Under the pieces are notes generated by a model. That model did no database searches. It was not told where the DNA came from and worked only from the letters and a program-made list of their open reading frames with translations. The position numbers and the translations under genes were made by a program. Source: Candidatus Spongiisociaceae bacterium (GTDB lineage Bacteria > Actinomycetota > Acidimicrobiia > Spongiisociales > Spongiisociaceae). From it: a stretch of 64,000 bases of DNA. Of the stretch, positions 4,904-62,908 are shown one piece after another. The stretch is from assembly GCA_965202665.1 (NCBI GenBank), contig OZ241841.1, positions 64,001 to 128,000 of the forward strand, written 5' to 3'. Each line of letters begins with the position of its first letter. Position 1 is the stretch's first letter.

Positions 4904-5497
4904 TTATCGGCCGGTCCGCTCAGTCTCCGGTTTTATTATAGCCAAAATTTCTCGTACGGCGTCGTCCACTCGGTCGTTTATCACCTGATGGGGGAATCCC
5001 TCCCCTATCCGTATCTGTTCGGCGGCCGCCGCCATCCGGGAGGCGATCACCTCTTCGGTCATGTCCCCCCGCCCCCGCAAGCGGTTTTCCAGCTCTTCCA
5101 TGGTGGGCGGTTTTAGGAAGATGGCCGTCGCCTCCGGATATTCTTCCCTAATCCGCTGCGCTCCTTTGGCCTCCACGTCCAGAACCACGTTCCGCCCTTG
5201 CGTCAGATGCCCTTCCACTTCGGAGACCGGGGTCCCGTAACGATGCCCGGCGTAACGTTCCCATTCCAGCAATTTGCCCTCCCTCGCCCAAGCCTCGAAT
5301 TCGGCTTCGTCCAGGAAAAAATAGTGCTCCCCGTCCACTTCGCCCGGACGGGGCGGGCGGGTGGTGGCCGACACCGCGAAGCGGTGGGGCCATCGGCCCG
5401 CCAAACCGGACAGAATGGTCTGCTTTCCCACCCCGGAGGGCCCGCAGATGATCGCCAACCGGCCGCGGCCAGCCGCCACATTGGCCACCTCCGTCAC
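4904..5497 (-). CDS. gmk: Guanylate kinase
   Basis: GPSGVGK, SATTRPPRPGEVDGEHYFF, YGTP. Confidence 0.97.
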   Translation of the reverse strand: MTEVANVAAGRGRLAIICGPSGVGKQTILSGLAGRWPHRFAVSATTRPPRPGEVDGEHYFFLDEAEFEAWAREGKLLEWERYAGHRYGTPVSEVEGHLTQGRNVVLDVEAKGAQRIREEYPEATAIFLKPPTMEELENRLRGRGDMTEEVIASRMAAAAEQIRIGEGFPHQVINDRVDDAVREILAIIKPETERTGR

Positions 5498-5502
5498 CCG
5501 GG

Positions 5503-5823
5503 CTATCCGGACTTATCGCATTCTTCAATCAGTTTCTGCCTCTGCCGTACGCCCAATCCCCGCAGCCGCCGGTTTTCGGAGATGCCCAGTTTCTCCATCG
5601 TCCGTTTGGTTTTCATCTTGCCGTAGCCGGGAATGGACACCACCACCGCCGACACTTTCATGCCGGCGGCGATCTCGTCGGTTTCCGCCATCTCCAAAAG
5701 TTCGGCCACCGTCATGGAACGGGTCTTCAGGGCCTGCTTCCATTCGGCGCGGGTGCGGCGAACATGGGCCGCCTTCGCCAAAGCTGCGGCCCGTTGCTCT
5801 TCCGTCAAAGGGGTGAGGGGCAT
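5503..5823 (-). CDS. mihF: Actinobacterial integration host factor (mIHF/sIHF)
   Basis: LTEEQRAAALAKA...MEKLGISENRRLRGLGVRQ; pyrF-mihF-gmk order. Confidence 0.93.
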   Translation of the reverse strand: MPLTPLTEEQRAAALAKAAHVRRTRAEWKQALKTRSMTVAELLEMAETDEIAAGMKVSAVVVSIPGYGKMKTKRTMEKLGISENRRLRGLGVRQRQKLIEECDKSG

Positions 5824-5933
5824 TTGTCGACTCCTTCGTCCAAGCCTGCCGGGTGGCGGTTTGCCGACCCAACTTTACCCGGAGAACCGGGCTAAGTAGC
5901 CCAACCGCCCAGTATCTCCCGGAGCGGCGTTTT

Positions 5934-6680
5934 TCAGTCCGGCGCCGGGCTCGCCTCCGCCGCGCCCGGCCCGGCCGCCGCCAGCTTGGCCGCGATGGCC
6001 GCCGCAGCCGCCGCCGGGTCGGGAGCGCGGGTGATGGGCCGTCCTATAACCAGCAGGTCCGCCCCCCAGCTCAAGGCTTCGACCGGGGTGGCGGTGCGCA
6101 CCTGGTCGTCCCCTTCGGCCGCCGCCGGGCGGATGCCGGGCGTCACTTTCAGCATGTCCGGGGCGGCGTCGGCGATCACCCTCAGCTCGCGGGGGGAGGC
6201 GATCACCCCTTCGCAATCGGCTTCGGCGGCCAGGCGGGCCCGGCGGGACGACAACCCGGCGGGGGAACCGCTCTCCCCGGTCTCGGCCAAATCGGAAGAG
6301 TCGAGGCTGGTGAGGACGGTGACCGCCAGCACCCCCGCCGGACGCGAACCCGCCCCTTCGGCCAGTCCGTCCACCGCCTCCCGCAACATGGTCCGGCCGC
6401 CCGCGGCGTGGGCCGTCACCCACCGGGCCCCGGCCGCTCCCAGCCCGCGGGCGGCGGCCCGCACCGTGTTGGGGATGTCGTGCAGTTTGGCGTCCACCAG
6501 CAGGGGCTTGCCCATCCGGGACAGGGCCGCCACCACCCCCGGGCCGGGCCCGGTTAGCAGTTCCAGCCCCACTTTGAAACCCCCCACATGGGGGGACACC
6601 CTCCGCGCCAGGTGCACCGCTTCCTCGGCGGTGGAAACATCCAGCGCCGCCAAGATGGGATTGCGGACAGCTTCGTTCAT
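5934..6680 (-). CDS. pyrF: Orotidine 5'-phosphate decarboxylase
   Basis: DAKLHDIPNTV, VTPGIRP, DDQVR, VIGRPIT. Confidence 0.97.
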   Translation of the reverse strand: MNEAVRNPILAALDVSTAEEAVHLARRVSPHVGGFKVGLELLTGPGPGVVAALSRMGKPLLVDAKLHDIPNTVRAAARGLGAAGARWVTAHAAGGRTMLREAVDGLAEGAGSRPAGVLAVTVLTSLDSSDLAETGESGSPAGLSSRRARLAAEADCEGVIASPRELRVIADAAPDMLKVTPGIRPAAAEGDDQVRTATPVEALSWGADLLVIGRPITRAPDPAAAAAAIAAKLAAAGPGAAEASPAPD

Positions 6681-6684
6681 GGCC

Positions 6685-7605
6685 TTACCCTACTTTCATG
6701 ATTCCGGTCAGTTCCGATACCTTCCCCACCCGGTTCGCCCGGCACCAGCGGGCCAACTCCCGGTCGATGCGGCGCGCCGCCCGGGGGGCGGAGAAATGCA
6801 CGGTGCCGATGGCCACCGCGCTGGCCCCCGCCATCATATATTCCACCACGTCCGCCCCCGAGACCGCCCCCCCGCAGCCGACGATGGGAACCCCCGGCAG
6901 GGCGCGGGCCGTCTCCGTCACGCACCGCATGGCCAGCGGCTTCAGCGGCGGGCCCGAATAACCGCCCACCGTTCCCGCCAGCCGGGGGCGGCCGGTGGCG
7001 ATGTCCACCGCCGCCCCCAGGGCGGTGTTGGTCAGCACCAGCCAGTCCGCCCCGGCTGCTACCACCGCCCGGGCCACCGAAACGATATCGGGGGCGTTGG
7101 GGGACAGCTTCACCCCCATGGGCGAAGACACCGCCTCCCGCACCGCGGCCGTAACCCGGCCGGACAGGGCCGCGTCGAGGGCGATCAGGCCTTCCCCCTC
7201 CAGGTTGGGGCAGGACAGGTTCACTTCCACCGCCGCCGTTCCCGCTTCTTGCAACCCCCGGGCCACCGCCGCGAACTCCCCGGGGGTGCGCCCCACCGCC
7301 GACCCCCATACCGGAACCGGCAGGGAGGCGATGCGCGGGCCGAACTGGGCCGCCCACCGTTCAATGCCCGGATTCTGGATGCCTATCCCGTTCAGCATCC
7401 CCGTCCCGGCCGGGGCCAGGCGGGGCGGCGGGTTGCCCGGCCAAGGATCCTGCGATACCGACTTGGCCACCAGCGCCCCGTAGCAATCCAAAGTCCCCGC
7501 CCCGGCGAAGTCCACCGCCGACCCGACCGTCCCCGACGCCCCGATGAGGGGCGAACGGAGCCGAATCGGCCCCAAGGTCACCGACCGGTCGGGGTTCCGT
7601 GCCAT
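6685..7605 (-). CDS. pyrD: Dihydroorotate dehydrogenase, family 1 catalytic subunit
   Basis: [39 protein letters not shown]; ATG at 7605. Confidence 0.93.
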
Positions 7606-58898: not shown

Positions 58899-58946
58899 AA
58901 TGTTTTCCCTTCCTCTCTGCTTGTCGATCCTCTCTCCGCCCGTGGA

Positions 58947-59020
58947 GGAACATATGTTCGATTAGTTACATCCTCAGTATTACCGAACGCGTGTTCGGTG
59001 TCAAATCGAACATATGTTTG
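58947..59020. promoter_or_regulatory. Three LexA (SOS) boxes in the lexA/LysM divergent promoter
   Basis: GGAACATATGTTCG 58947-58960, CGAACGCGTGTTCG 58984-58997, CGAACATATGTTTG 59007-59020. Confidence 0.9.
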
Positions 59021-59075
59021 TAATCCGTTTAGGCGGCTGATAGAATGGGGACGACCCGAAACAGAAGGGAGCGCG

Positions 59076-59774: not shown

Positions 59775-59810
59775 ACCTAAAGGTCCGTATAGAGAGTAGA
59801 AATGTTTCCC

Positions 59811-60080
59811 ATGAAGTACGGATACGTTCTGGAACCGGGCCAGCGGGGGCGGTGGTTCGCTTACGTGCCGGATCTTCCCGGATGCACCGCCGCCGGCAAG
59901 ACGGTGGAGAAGGCCGTCCGCAACATTGCCGGAGCGGTCCAGGTCTACATCGAGGCTCTGCGAGAAACCGGAGAACCGGTCCCGTCGCCCAGCCCGATGA
60001 TCGAGGCCTACCCGGAAACGGAACCCGGTTATCGGGTAGTCCAACCCGGGGATGCGACGTATCCTCCGTCTACTGGTTAA
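59811..60080 (+). CDS. HicB-family antitoxin (short form)
   Basis: YVPDLPGCTAAGKTVEKAVRNIAGAVQVYIEALRETGEPVP. Confidence 0.88.
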   Translation: MKYGYVLEPGQRGRWFAYVPDLPGCTAAGKTVEKAVRNIAGAVQVYIEALRETGEPVPSPSPMIEAYPETEPGYRVVQPGDATYPPSTG

Positions 60081-60231
60081 TCGGGTCTTTGCGTTTTGTG
60101 GTGGGGATAGGGGCTGTTGAGGGCGGTCGGTTTGCCCGGTGTGCGGGGCGGGTTGCCAGCGGGTACGGGGATATCGGCCGTAACGGGTACGGGATCTTCC
60201 GACCCGAGAACGGGAGACTGTGCTGACTAGG

Positions 60232-60605
60232 TGTACAAGGCCGGTAGGTTGGTTACAGTCTGGAGGTTGGTGGTTTGCCTCCGAGGCTGTAGTGGGGCCG
60301 GTAGTTGTGGTAGTAGTGGAGCCAGTGGCGGAGGGCTTGGTTTCGGGTTTGGTTGTCGGGCCAGGGTTGGGAGTTGGCCCATTTGGGTTTGAGGGTTTGG
60401 TTGTATCGTTCCACTTTGCCGTTCTGCTGGGGATGATACGGTTTGATCGTGATATGACGGATGCCGTGTTGGGCGAGCAGGGAAGCGAACGCTCGGCTGC
60501 GGGTGTAGCTGCGGTGGTTATTGGTCATGATCTCCGCGATGTGGGTGACGCCCAGTTGGTGGAAGTGGTGTATGGCGCGGGCGGTGAACGTCCTGGCCAA
60601 GTACA
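60232..60605 (-). mobile_element. Internally deleted IS481-family element (374 bp)
   Basis: Imperfect inverted repeats TGTACAAGGCCGGTAGGTT / TGTACTTGGCCAGGACGTT, flanks ACTAGG / GCTAGG; encodes only the integrase-core C-terminus (HPQQNGKVERYNQTL...YHNYRPHYSLGGKPP). Confidence 0.85.
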
Positions 60606-60781
60606 GCTAGGGTGCGACGGGGTGCCTGTTCCTGTCCAGGCAGGCCACGGCGGCCTGTCAGCTCTTGTCCTGATCTGGTCTGCGGCAAGAACCTGCCTGC
60701 GGACCATCCAGGCCTGTCTGGTGGCCTGTTCTGCCATCAGGAACGGCCCCTGCTCTCCCTGGTCTGGTTCGGGGTCAGGGG

Positions 60782-60970
60782 TCAGGACTGCCTTTTTGTG
60801 ATTTCCAGGCTTGCCTGACCACTGGTCATCCTGCTGGATTTCCGTCTGCTGACCCCTAATGTTTCCAGCAGTGCTATCTGCTTGTCTGTAGCAGGCAGGT
60901 TCATCCTGGTTTTGGCCTGCCTGCCGTGGATAGCCTTGTACACTTTCTTGACCTGCCTTTTTTTGCCCAT
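60782..60970 (-). CDS. Small basic hypothetical protein with PATxKQ...T..QAS..I motif
   Basis: MGKKRQVKK...PATDKQIALLETLG...MTSGQASLEI; AGGA upstream of ATG. Confidence 0.6.
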   Translation of the reverse strand: MGKKRQVKKVYKAIHGRQAKTRMNLPATDKQIALLETLGVSRRKSSRMTSGQASLEITKRQS

Positions 60971-61220
60971 GTCTGTGTCCTGTCCTGTCTGCTCTGCTCT
61001 AATGGTTATGGAATGTCCAGAGCAAGGCACAATACCCTGCCTGGACACAGAGGGGGCAGAACCAGGGATGGTCTGCCCGTTTCCAGGATAGCGAGTTCCA
61101 GATATTCCATTATTACAACCCGCAATGATGGACGGCAGGTTTCTGCCATCGTTCCAGACAGGCCTGAAATGTTCTGCCTGGAAATCCTGATATGTCAGAG
61201 CAGACAGGTTCTACTACCGA

Positions 61221-61994
61221 TTAATCCATCGCTATCGTTCCTCGGAACGCTGTTCGGGCGGGGCCGGTTAACCAGGCCCGTCCCTCTATTAGTTCCACCC
61301 GCAACGGGCCGCCCGGCAGTCGCACCGTGGCCATCGGATCGGCCAGTCCGCGGCTGACGGCGACGGCTACCGCGGCGGCGGCTCCGGTGCCGCACGCCCG
61401 GGTCTCCCCCGCTCCCCGCTCCCACACCCGCAACCGCAGTCCCGCGCCGTCCGGGTCGGGGGCTGCGAACCCGACGTTGACCCGGTCGGGGAAAGCCGGG
61501 TGGGTTTCCACCCGGGGGCCCACCTCCCCCACCGGGGCCCGTTCCGGGTCGTCCACCAGGGTCACCGCATGCGGGTTGCCCACCGACGCCAAAATGAACT
61601 CCCGCCCGTCGATGGTGATTTCGCCTTCCACCGCATACTCCCCCAACTCCACCCGGCACACCTCCGGACGTTCCGGGTCCGGGATTTGCGCCCGCCGCTC
61701 CCCCATCGGGGTTTCCACGATGAAATCGGCGCCCCCGGTCCATCCCCGCTGGTAGCCGTAGCGGGCTACGCAACGCAGGCCGTTGCCGCACATCTCGGCC
61801 GGCGACCCGTCGGCGTTCCAGTAGTCCATGCGCAGGGCGGCCGGCGGGCGGGAGGCGGGCCCCGCCAGCAGCACCCCGTCCGCCCCCACCCCGGTGCGGC
61901 GGTCGCACAGGCGGCGGATGGTCTCCCGGTCGGGGGGTTCCCCTTCCAGCACCACGAAATCGTTGCCGAGTCCCTCCATCTTCAGGAAATCCAC
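61221..61994 (-). CDS. dapF: Diaminopimelate epimerase
   Basis: KMEGLGNDF, GVGADG, NADGSPAEMCGNGLRC, GNPH, ERGAGETRACGTG. Confidence 0.97.
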   Translation of the reverse strand: MDFLKMEGLGNDFVVLEGEPPDRETIRRLCDRRTGVGADGVLLAGPASRPPAALRMDYWNADGSPAEMCGNGLRCVARYGYQRGWTGGADFIVETPMGERRAQIPDPERPEVCRVELGEYAVEGEITIDGREFILASVGNPHAVTLVDDPERAPVGEVGPRVETHPAFPDRVNVGFAAPDPDGAGLRLRVWERGAGETRACGTGAAAAVAVAVSRGLADPMATVRLPGGPLRVELIEGRAWLTGPARTAFRGTIAMD

Positions 61995-62908
61995 TGCGCC
62001 TCCGTTTCTTCTATCAACCGGCGGACGGACCGGCACATTCCGCCGACATCCTCCTCCCAGGGAAGCCATCGGATGCGGGGGTCGCGGCGGAAGAAGGTGC
62101 GCTGGCGGCGAGCCAAACCCATTGTGGCCGAAAGGGCCCGCTGTTGCCCTTCCCGTAACGGGATTTCCCCCCGCACCACCGGCAGGAGTTGTTTGTAGCC
62201 GACCGCCTGGGAGGCGTTGCGGCCCATCTTTCCGTCCAGGCCGGCCACTTCCTCCAGCAGTCCGGCCCGCAACATCCGCTCCAAGCGGGACTCCGCCCGC
62301 CCGGCCAGGGCCGGGCCGGGATCCAACCCCAGGGTCAGCAACGGGGCTCCACCCTGATAGTCCCGCACCTGCCGGGCGCTTTTCAGCCGGACGCGGCGGG
62401 AAGGAGGCGGGCCGCCCATTTTGACCACCTCCAAAGCGCGGCGCACCCGGCGGGGATTGGCCATGTCCAGATGCCGGGGCGCCTCCGGGTCGGCGGCCAG
62501 CAGTTCGGCCCGCGCCCGGTCGTCGGACAGTTCGTCCACCCGCCGTCTGATCTCCGGGTCGCCGGGGGGGAATTCCAGCGGGTCCGCCAAAGCCCGGAAG
62601 TAAAGCCCCGACCCCCCGGCCAAAATGAGACGCGCCCCCCGGCGTTGCGCATCCGCCATCACCCGCCTTCCCGCGGCTTGAAATTCGGCGACCGTGTAAT
62701 CCGTCTCCGGGGAGGCCAAATCCAGCAAATGATGGGGGATGCGGGCTTGATCGGCGGGGGCGGGTTTGGCGGTGCCGATGTCCATCCCCCGGTACACCTG
62801 CATGGAATCAACCGAGGCTATTTCCGCCCCGTATGCCTCCGCCAAACAGAGGGCCAGGTCGCTTTTGCCGGAGGCGGTGAGGCCGAGCAGGGCCACTGCC
62901 GGAATCAG
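61982..62908 (-). CDS. miaA: tRNA dimethylallyltransferase
   Basis: GLTASGKS, DSMQVYRGMDIGTAKP, GGSGLY, ARRQRTFF. Confidence 0.96.
   Translation of the reverse strand: MIPAVALLGLTASGKSDLALCLAEAYGAEIASVDSMQVYRGMDIGTAKPAPADQARIPHHLLDLASPETDYTVAEFQAAGRRVMADAQRRGARLILAGGSGLYFRALADPLEFPPGDPEIRRRVDELSDDRARAELLAADPEAPRHLDMANPRRVRRALEVVKMGGPPPSRRVRLKSARQVRDYQGGAPLLTLGLDPGPALAGRAESRLERMLRAGLLEEVAGLDGKMGRNASQAVGYKQLLPVVRGEIPLREGQQRALSATMGLARRQRTFFRRDPRIRWLPWEEDVGGMCRSVRRLIEETEAQWIS

What the first reader, a model, noticed from the sequence alone, without database searches (positions are those of the whole stretch)
60606..61210. 600-bp island with inverted trinucleotide signature (CTG/CAG-rich, no CCGG): candidate targeted C-to-T hypermutation
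Seen (hand count, 60601-61200): about 64 CTG+CAG versus about 12 CCG+CGG and no CCGG, the reverse of adjacent dapF (8-10 CCG+CGG versus 2 CTG+CAG per 60 nt). Substituting CTG->CCG and CAG->CGG in the first 200 bp gives sequence that reads like host DNA (cctgttcctgtccaggcagg -> cccgttcccgtccgggcggg). Both strands are affected, as expected from deamination of the inner C of CCG. Inference: either DNA from a donor with heavy CCG methylation/deamination or Dcm/Vsr-type bias, or local RIP-like or deaminase editing of mobile DNA next to an IS end, which would be a new bacterial genome-defence process. This is the strangest signal in the window.
Basis: partly seen in the sequence, partly recalled or inferred. 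Interest (0 to 1): 0.7.

Follow-up and report, generated by a model that had tools for sequence, protein, structure and literature searches.

The report
Relic of a CpG-purged symbiont invader
The odd 600-base stretch is real and is likely a leftover piece of an unknown phage or plasmid whose DNA had already shed CG sites before it landed in this sponge-symbiont chromosome, not DNA edited in place by a new bacterial defence.

Summary
The counts are right: 65 CTG/CAG against 11 CCG/CGG in 594 bp, beyond all 2000 dinucleotide shuffles. The genome holds seven such segments (6.2 kb). Contigs of other runs cross both junctions, so it is no artefact.

In-place C-to-T editing is not supported. All CpG contexts are depleted, CCG least. 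CATG, TGCA, GATC and AGCT are also avoided, which deamination cannot cause. Against normal paralogues of two island SLH genes, 19 of 31 CSG-to-CWG changes are transversions, and the frames stay open. None of 6 strain SNPs in the island is a CSG/CWG swap. The multicopy IS481 next door is unmutated.

Four of 60 spacers in the host's CRISPR array carry the island signature (shuffles: mean 0.28) but match no island. This points to a CWG-rich invader outside the chromosome. Unrelated IMG/VR phages show contig-wide CCG loss.

Best reading (about 0.75): relics of a phage or plasmid recoded under restriction pressure, stranded beside IS ends. The donor itself was not found, and selection versus methylation-driven mutation is unresolved.

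The parts
59802..60080 (+). hicB-like antitoxin gene, left neighbour, present at the same place in the sister species
   Evidence: Pfam PF15919 E 2.8e-12; synteny with G001
60082..60225 (+). Degenerate 5' remnant of an ISL3-family element
   Evidence: Aligns to repeats at G000 1198460, 1204860, 2254580, 2449390. The 1204860 copy reads into a transposase-like frame of the same kind as a copy with weak ISL3 Pfam hits below cut-off (PF13542, PF14690)
60226..60231 (+). Left copy of the 6-bp target duplication of the IS481 insertion
   Evidence: 5 of 6 bases equal to 60606-60611
60232..60605 (-). Internally deleted IS481 with both ends kept; rve_3 fragment at 60253-60600
   Evidence: First 359 bp align to a full copy, last bases match the other IS end; PF13683; IS481 leucine zipper PF13011 in a full copy
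60606..60622 (+). Right target duplication (60606-60611) and about 11 more bases of the ISL3 remnant; the island begins after this
60623..61216 (.). CWG-rich, CpG-poor, palindrome-poor island; likely relic of a phage or plasmid
   Evidence: Segmentation gave 60623-61213; right end set by the joint at 61217; counts
60782..60970 (-). Intact 62-aa orphan ORF with an AGGA-type ribosome site upstream; no family found
   Evidence: Called as a gene in NCBI, Logan and ENA assemblies, with a 3-substitution variant; no Pfam or PHROG hit; no phage tblastn hit; no fold match at E<=0.001
60769..60770 (.). Site of a 144-bp segment present in other strains and absent from this assembly
   Evidence: Contigs of X1, X2, X3, X4 carry 144 more bases here; X14 matches the window with 0 differences over 708 bp
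61221..62069 (-). dapF, right neighbour, normal host composition
   Evidence: PF01678 E 2.5e-52; composition

Best explanation
The island is likely a stranded fragment of an uncharacterised phage or plasmid of this sponge-symbiont species, whose DNA likely lost CpG and four-base palindromes over a long time before a piece entered the chromosome between hicB and dapF. Shown: the composition, six sister segments, open frames with CWG at silent positions, both junctions in other samples, near-identity across strains, and CRISPR spacers with the same signature. Inferred: that the donor is a mobile element; that host restriction was the main selective force. On this reading, in GC-rich genes the silent escape from NCC-G and NCG-G is NCA-G or NCT-G, and from Arg CGR is AGR, so CpG loss piles up as CTG/CAG. 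Also inferred: IS481/ISL3 insertion and deletion trimmed larger integrated pieces to these relics.
For: Same signature in seven segments (leave-one-out 4-mer correlation 0.58-0.85) with orphan ORFs. Markov-corrected avoidance: CATG 2 vs 25.8 expected, TGCA 4 vs 44.0, GATC 8 vs 35.7, AGCT 5 vs 23.8, ACGT 0 vs 9.3; the host ratios for these are 0.67-1.12. In 1090 island codons, NCx codons before G end in A/T 86% of the time (host 7%), and Arg is AGR 64% (host 7%). SLH paralogue comparison: 31 of 34 CSG sites became CWG, 12 by transition and 19 by transversion. CRISPR type I-G: 4 of 60 spacers score LLR>3 for the island model (p 1.6e-5 vs genome, 8e-4 vs low-GC DNA), 200 shuffles give mean 0.28 and maximum 2, and the best spacer-island match has 12 mismatches. 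The host has 15 N6/N4 methyltransferase matches over cut-off, two C5 methyltransferases, one beside an NgoMIV-family nuclease, MTase-HNH and MTase-Mrr fusions, a type III Res and a GmrSD domain. The island differs by 0-3 bases per 350-560 bp between strains against 7-11 per 260-570 bp in the flanking genes, as for a recent arrival. One X3 contig joins 60052 to 61217 without it, and the sister species lacks it. Phages with contig-wide CWG 67-95 per kb and CSG 9-22 per kb exist.
Against: The donor was not found in any search (viral; metagenome: 28, 38; genomes: 56, 85, 87; phage records: 101, 110). No island ORF hits a phage hallmark, integrase or replication family (11 proteins scanned, 8 from islands), so phage versus plasmid versus another cell is not settled. 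No spacer matches an island. Spacer support in relatives is weak: G001 4 of 160 (shuffles mean 0.8, maximum 4), G004 0 of 60, G009 0 of 37. Simple simulations of CpG or CCG loss from host DNA reached only 37-58 CWG per kb, not 93, so the size of the CTG excess is not reproduced. GTG and TTG do not rise, which general CpG avoidance might be expected to cause. The SLH paralogues are only 33-52% identical, so direction of change is inferred and multiple hits are likely. All five large segments touch IS-derived DNA against 4 of 121 other low-GC segments, more than neutral drift into junk DNA explains; the IS role is not worked out.
Confidence: 0.75

Rival explanations
1. Same foreign origin, but the signature is mutational: the donor (or its host) carries a cytosine methyltransferase acting on CCG/CpG, and the methylated C mutates to both T and A, as reported for an N4 methyltransferase in Salmonella. 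This competes only with the 'selection' step of the best explanation; both may act.
For: CCG-to-CAG is the commonest conversion (13 of 31), the same change as in bioRxiv 10.1101/2021.01.19.427316. Non-silent swaps occur at conserved SLH positions (Pro to Gln, Arg to Gln). Total CNG is conserved (108 per kb in islands, 119 in host). Gln is 8.8% of island residues against 4.0% in the host.
Against: CCG is the least depleted CpG context. Loss of CATG, TGCA, GATC and AGCT needs selection anyway. No PF00145 gene in the four partial CWG-rich phage records (15-61% complete); N4 methyltransferases were not searched there. Host core genes keep CSG at 89 per kb.
Confidence: 0.3
2. The donor is the chromosome of another, co-occurring bacterium with genome-wide CpG loss, and the pieces came by ordinary gene transfer.
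For: Two of five large islands carry SLH-family genes typical of cell chromosomes in this lineage (34 matches in G001). No phage hallmark gene found.
Against: None of the dapF or miaB loci sampled from 25 relatives is CWG-rich (19, 6). A CWG pattern gave 12 matches in G000, all in islands, and no island-like locus among the 23 matches in 12 other genomes (loci held for all). No housekeeping gene lies in 6.2 kb of islands. CRISPR spacers mostly record mobile elements (established knowledge).
Confidence: 0.14
3. One reading: the host edits mobile DNA in place next to IS ends, deaminating the inner C of CCG on both strands (RIP-like defence).
For: All five large islands abut IS481 or ISL3 DNA. 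Island CWG gain (about 63 per kb) roughly balances CSG loss (about 74 per kb) relative to the host mean. 12 of 31 conversions are deamination-type. The sister species shows no island-like stretch in 414 kb of IS- and SLH-rich DNA, apart from one AT-rich window.
Against: 19 of 31 conversions are transversions. The IS copies themselves, the repeated DNA, are unmutated. Frames are open with silent-site bias. 0 of 6 island SNPs are CSG/CWG swaps, against 2 of the 30 listed outside it. Non-CpG palindromes are purged. No unmutated paralogue appears in the genome after back-substitution. CWG-type spacers match no island.
Confidence: 0.04
4. Assembly chimera or methylation-induced base-calling error.
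For: The assembly is a single contig, probably from long reads (inference); the island sits in repeat-rich DNA.
Against: 14 runs of 5 studies hold it. Contigs of X1, X2, X3 and X4 run from the IS481 through the island into dapF, and X14 is identical over 708 bp. Library types are not on record, and one run may be the source sample.
Confidence: 0.01

Closest known systems
Restriction-site avoidance in prokaryotic viruses (PMC6286503; abstract read)
   Same: Near-complete loss of several four-base palindromes in DNA that meets an R-M-rich host; sponge microbiomes are enriched in R-M and CRISPR (PMC5099237, passages).
   Different: Here avoidance extends to all CpG and comes with a threefold CTG/CAG excess; the abstract reports avoidance as weaker in temperate phages, whereas this DNA ended up integrated.
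C-to-A hypermutation at an N4-methylcytosine site (bioRxiv 10.1101/2021.01.19.427316; part 1 of 2 of the text read)
   Same: CCG-to-CAG and CCG-to-CTG changes together.
   Different: That effect is confined to one hexamer and acts genome-wide in the carrier; here it is confined to foreign segments, has no fixed flanking motif, and no enzyme is identified.
Fungal repeat-induced point mutation (RIP) and AID/APOBEC editing (recalled, not read)
   Same: Local, two-strand loss of a C-containing motif near mobile DNA.
   Different: Single-copy DNA affected while repeats are spared; transversions dominate; genes remain open.
Degraded prophage or plasmid remnants bounded by insertion sequences (recalled)
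   Same: Short orphan-gene fragments, patchy among species, decaying by small deletions, next to IS ends.
   Different: No hallmark gene, integrase or att site was found; recognised only by composition and by CRISPR spacers of like composition.

Membership tests
RIP-like or deaminase editing | Changes are C-to-T / G-to-A only | tested here: not met
   19 of 31 CSG-to-CWG conversions are transversions (tested on two sister islands, as the window island has no outside homologue)
RIP-like or deaminase editing | Targets duplicated or mobile sequence itself | tested here: not met
   Island is single-copy; multicopy IS481 beside it has 29 CSG and 15 CWG
RIP-like or deaminase editing | Blind to coding, inactivates genes | tested here: not met
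   Eight island ORFs of 62-252 aa are open; silent-site and Arg AGR bias
RIP-like or deaminase editing | Ongoing motif-specific variation among strains | tested here: not met
   0 of 6 island SNPs are CSG/CWG swaps (from; one search showed only its best-supported rows)
RIP-like or deaminase editing | A dedicated methyltransferase or deaminase | tested here: inconclusive
   Two C5 methyltransferases found, one beside an NgoMIV-family nuclease; DNA deaminases were not searched
Phage or plasmid remnant | Virion, integrase or replication genes | tested here: inconclusive
   None among 8 island proteins, but only 6.2 kb of fragments exist
Phage or plasmid remnant | Absent from relatives at the same site | tested here: met
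   G001 lacks it; no island match in 40 relatives; empty-site contig in X3
Phage or plasmid remnant | Restriction-site avoidance | tested here: met
Phage or plasmid remnant | Targeted by host CRISPR | tested here: inconclusive
   Spacers share the signature (4 of 60) but none matches an island sequence
Phage or plasmid remnant | att sites or terminal repeats | tested here: inconclusive
   Only short repeats (TTAAT at both outer borders, seen); borders are IS-derived
N4-methylcytosine hypermutation | Excess CCG-to-CAG | tested here: met
   13 of 31 conversions
N4-methylcytosine hypermutation | Methylation shown at the mutated C by a named enzyme | not testable with these tools
   Needs methylome sequencing of host and donor

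The most novel reading that the evidence does not exclude
An undescribed pressure acting on the three-base word CCG/CGG shapes a class of phage genomes: either a host defence that recognises or modifies CCG, or a phage methyltransferase that makes it hypermutable to both T and A. The islands and spacers here record one such invader, which also captured and recoded host SLH surface-protein genes. Unrelated IMG/VR records show the pure form (G334: CCG 0.35, GCG 0.99, TCG 0.98, CTG 2.46 over 19.7 kb; G337: CCG 0.24, GCG 0.86, CTG 2.72; CCGG not further avoided). Two full-text searches found no paper on it.
Probability: 0.25. Interest if true: 0.7.

Novelty: new variant of a known kind. Interest (0 to 1): 0.4.

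Why it matters
As read here it is not a new genome-defence process. It is a fingerprint of an unsequenced invader of a sponge symbiont with unusually strong CpG and palindrome purging. That fingerprint can be used to fish the invader out of sponge metagenomes and viromes and to link it to its host through spacers. The wider lead is contig-wide CCG-to-CWG bias in unrelated phages: a three-base target is shorter than ordinary restriction sites, so its cause could be a new defence or a new mutational process, and it is directly testable by methylome and SNP-spectrum data.

Tried and rejected
Searches for the donor that found nothing:
- 62-aa protein in viral, metagenome and genome contigs, phage records, and the 5.8-billion protein set (only its own cluster).
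- 252-aa ORF of another island: only itself.
- 110-aa ORF: four outside relatives in ENA/Logan (38-91%) whose DNA could not be read; profile searches in viral contigs, genome contigs and 250 genomes of the order were empty.
- Motif shared by two islands: nothing in metagenome contigs, one hit in a viral contig of ordinary composition.
- One spacer core: a single 20-base hit with unmatched flanks in a CSG-rich contig, taken as chance. Whole array against phage records: none.

Other dead ends:
- Back-substituting CWG to CSG revealed no host paralogue.
- The structure model of the 62-aa protein was weak (pLDDT 66, pTM 0.26) and gave no fold match. The Atlas held none of the four sequences tried.
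L411 looked like a match but is a CCTG microsatellite.
- Mutation simulations did not separate four models.
- A 16-base identity between one G001 spacer and the 1752-kb island (seen by eye) is too short to count.
- Four look-ups of earlier findings returned nothing.
No supplements were consulted.

Full report
Observation. The island proper is 60623-61216, with 65 CWG, 11 CSG and 13 CG; 2000 dinucleotide shuffles give 36.4 +/- 3.9 and never more than 51. The window lies in a 2.77-Mb, 64% GC genome held by 14 runs of 5 studies, four labelled sponge metagenome and four marine metagenome. A genome scan finds five large and two small segments with the same signature, 6.2 kb in all, with leave-one-out 4-mer correlations of 0.58-0.85.

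Anatomy. From left to right: a hicB-like gene; a degenerate ISL3 5' remnant; an internally deleted IS481 (60232-60605) with both ends and a 5-of-6 target duplication; about 11 more bases of the ISL3 remnant; the island; and the stop codon of dapF. The IS481 therefore landed in the ISL3 remnant, and the island joins ISL3-internal sequence. The island carries an open 62-codon ORF (60782-60970, minus strand) that public assemblies also call and that has no family. The sister species G001 has hicB and dapF in the same order without IS or island, and 40 relatives show no match to the island part.

Not an artefact. Contigs of runs X1, X2, X3 and X4 run from the IS481 through the island into dapF, with 144 extra bases at 60769; X14 equals the window over 708 bp. 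One X3 contig, about 88% identical in hicB, joins 60052 to 61217, an empty site. Island pieces differ from the window at 0-3 positions per 350-560 bp, flanking genes at 7-11 per 260-570 bp: the island is the less variable part.

Test of in-place deamination. Five results go against it. (a) All CpG contexts are depleted and CCG least (0.50 against 0.21-0.36); CpG sites with no CSG are 7.5 per kb against 32.4 in the host. (b) Palindromes without CpG are purged after Markov correction: CATG 2 against 25.8, TGCA 4 against 44.0, GATC 8 against 35.7, AGCT 5 against 23.8; CpG deamination would tend to create CATG and TGCA (inference). (c) Two sister islands carry SLH-family genes with normal paralogues in G001 and G000. 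Counting each island site once, 31 of 34 CSG sites are CWG in the island: 12 deamination-type and 19 transversion-type. The paralogues are distant (33-52%), so polarity is inferred, and this test is on sister islands, not on the window island. (d) In 1090 island codons the frames are open; NCx codons before G end in A or T in 107 of 124 cases (host 7%), and Arg codons are AGR in 43 of 68 (host 7%). (e) None of 6 strain SNPs in the island swaps CSG and CWG, and the multicopy IS481 next to it is unmutated.

Evidence for an outside donor. The genome has a type I-G CRISPR system with 61 repeats. Four of 60 spacers score above 3 for the island model (p 1.6e-5 against genome DNA, 8e-4 against low-GC DNA), and 7 of 60 have three or more CWG with at most one CG (p 2e-5 and 0.004); shuffled spacers give a mean of 0.28 and a maximum of 2 in 200. 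None matches an island better than 12 mismatches. Relatives give little: G001 4 of 160 (shuffles reach 4), G004 0 of 60, G009 0 of 37. A 110-aa island ORF has relatives at 38-91% in ENA and Logan assemblies on contigs up to 18 kb; their DNA could not be read. Pattern scans of IMG/VR, biased by design toward CWG-rich DNA and cut at 120 rows each, turned up records with contig-wide CWG of 67-95 and CSG of 9-22 per kb (four fetched whole). They share no detectable protein with the islands and lack most of the palindrome avoidance, so they show that such phage signatures exist, not who the donor is.

Mechanism. The host is rich in restriction-type genes: 15 N6/N4 methyltransferase matches over cut-off, two C5 methyltransferases, one with an NgoMIV-family nuclease, MTase-HNH and MTase-Mrr fusions, a type III Res and a GmrSD domain. 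Sponge microbiomes are enriched in such systems (PMC5099237, passages), and site avoidance is a widespread phage strategy (PMC6286503, abstract). I infer that an invader of this host purged CpG and palindromes mostly at silent sites, which in GC-rich genes yields CTG and CAG. A mutational cause stays open: an N4 methyltransferase in Salmonella drives CCG-to-CAG about 500-fold and C-to-T about 10-fold (bioRxiv 10.1101/2021.01.19.427316, part 1 of 2 read), and CCG-to-CAG is the commonest change here. My simulations reached only 37-58 CWG per kb against 93 observed and did not separate the models, so the strength of the CTG excess is unexplained. How the pieces entered is inferred: IS insertion into, and deletion of, larger integrated DNA; the tight IS association suggests an active IS role that I could not resolve.

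Novelty. As filed, this is a new variant of a known kind: a mobile-element relic with extreme site avoidance. It fails the tests for RIP-like editing. The boldest reading left is an undescribed pressure on the word CCG in a class of phages (probability about 0.25). Two full-text searches for CCG avoidance in phage genomes returned no paper; a search for RIP-like processes in bacteria listed ten papers, seen as listings only, none on this by title or start of abstract. The library lacks most subscription journals.

Verdict. Observation confirmed; local editing about 0.04; foreign relic about 0.75, with another bacterium's chromosome about 0.14; donor not found. Interest 0.4.

Noticed in passing
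L275 (G334, whole 19.7 kb) and L278 (G337, 4.4 kb); also L276, L277: IMG/VR phage records with contig-wide CCG/CGG depletion (0.24-0.35 of expected) and CTG/CAG excess (2.5-2.7) while GCG stays near 1 and CCGG is not further avoided; cause unknown, no C5 methyltransferase in the partial records.
   Followed up: partly
L031 (G001:C1:1258000-1272000), reverse strand about 5490-7230: At the orthologous site the sister species has three tandem, diverging copies of about 480 bp that include the 3' end of dapF; the dapF-hicB junction looks like a rearrangement hot spot.
   Followed up: no
G000:C1:2252588-2253337 (L035) and 1784790-1785278 (L034): Two islands carry members of the lineage-expanded secreted SLH-domain family (34 matches in G001), one full-length with a signal-peptide-like start, fully recoded to the CWG signature: possible capture of host surface-protein genes by the invader.
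   Followed up: partly
G000:C1:1613944-1618334 (L280): Type I-G CRISPR array with 61 repeats next to cas2, cas4g/cas1g, cas3g and csb2; an IS481 end lies just beyond the array.
   Followed up: yes
L266, L267, L271, L274 (G000): Several N6/N4 methyltransferases fused to HNH or Mrr nuclease domains, one next to a GmrSD N-terminal domain gene.
   Followed up: no
G000:C1:1752068-1752196 and 1786098-1786226: Two islands share 130 bp at 78% identity upstream of their ORFs, a possible conserved regulatory region of the donor family.
   Followed up: partly
G000:C1:803998-804977: A small CWG segment lies inside a 0.9-kb stretch bounded by 70-bp direct repeats (94% identical), like an integration scar.
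   Followed up: no
window 58900-59030: Palindromic GAAC-N4-GTTC-like boxes lie between lexA and the divergent LysM-type gene; the SOS-box reading is recalled, not tested.
   Followed up: no
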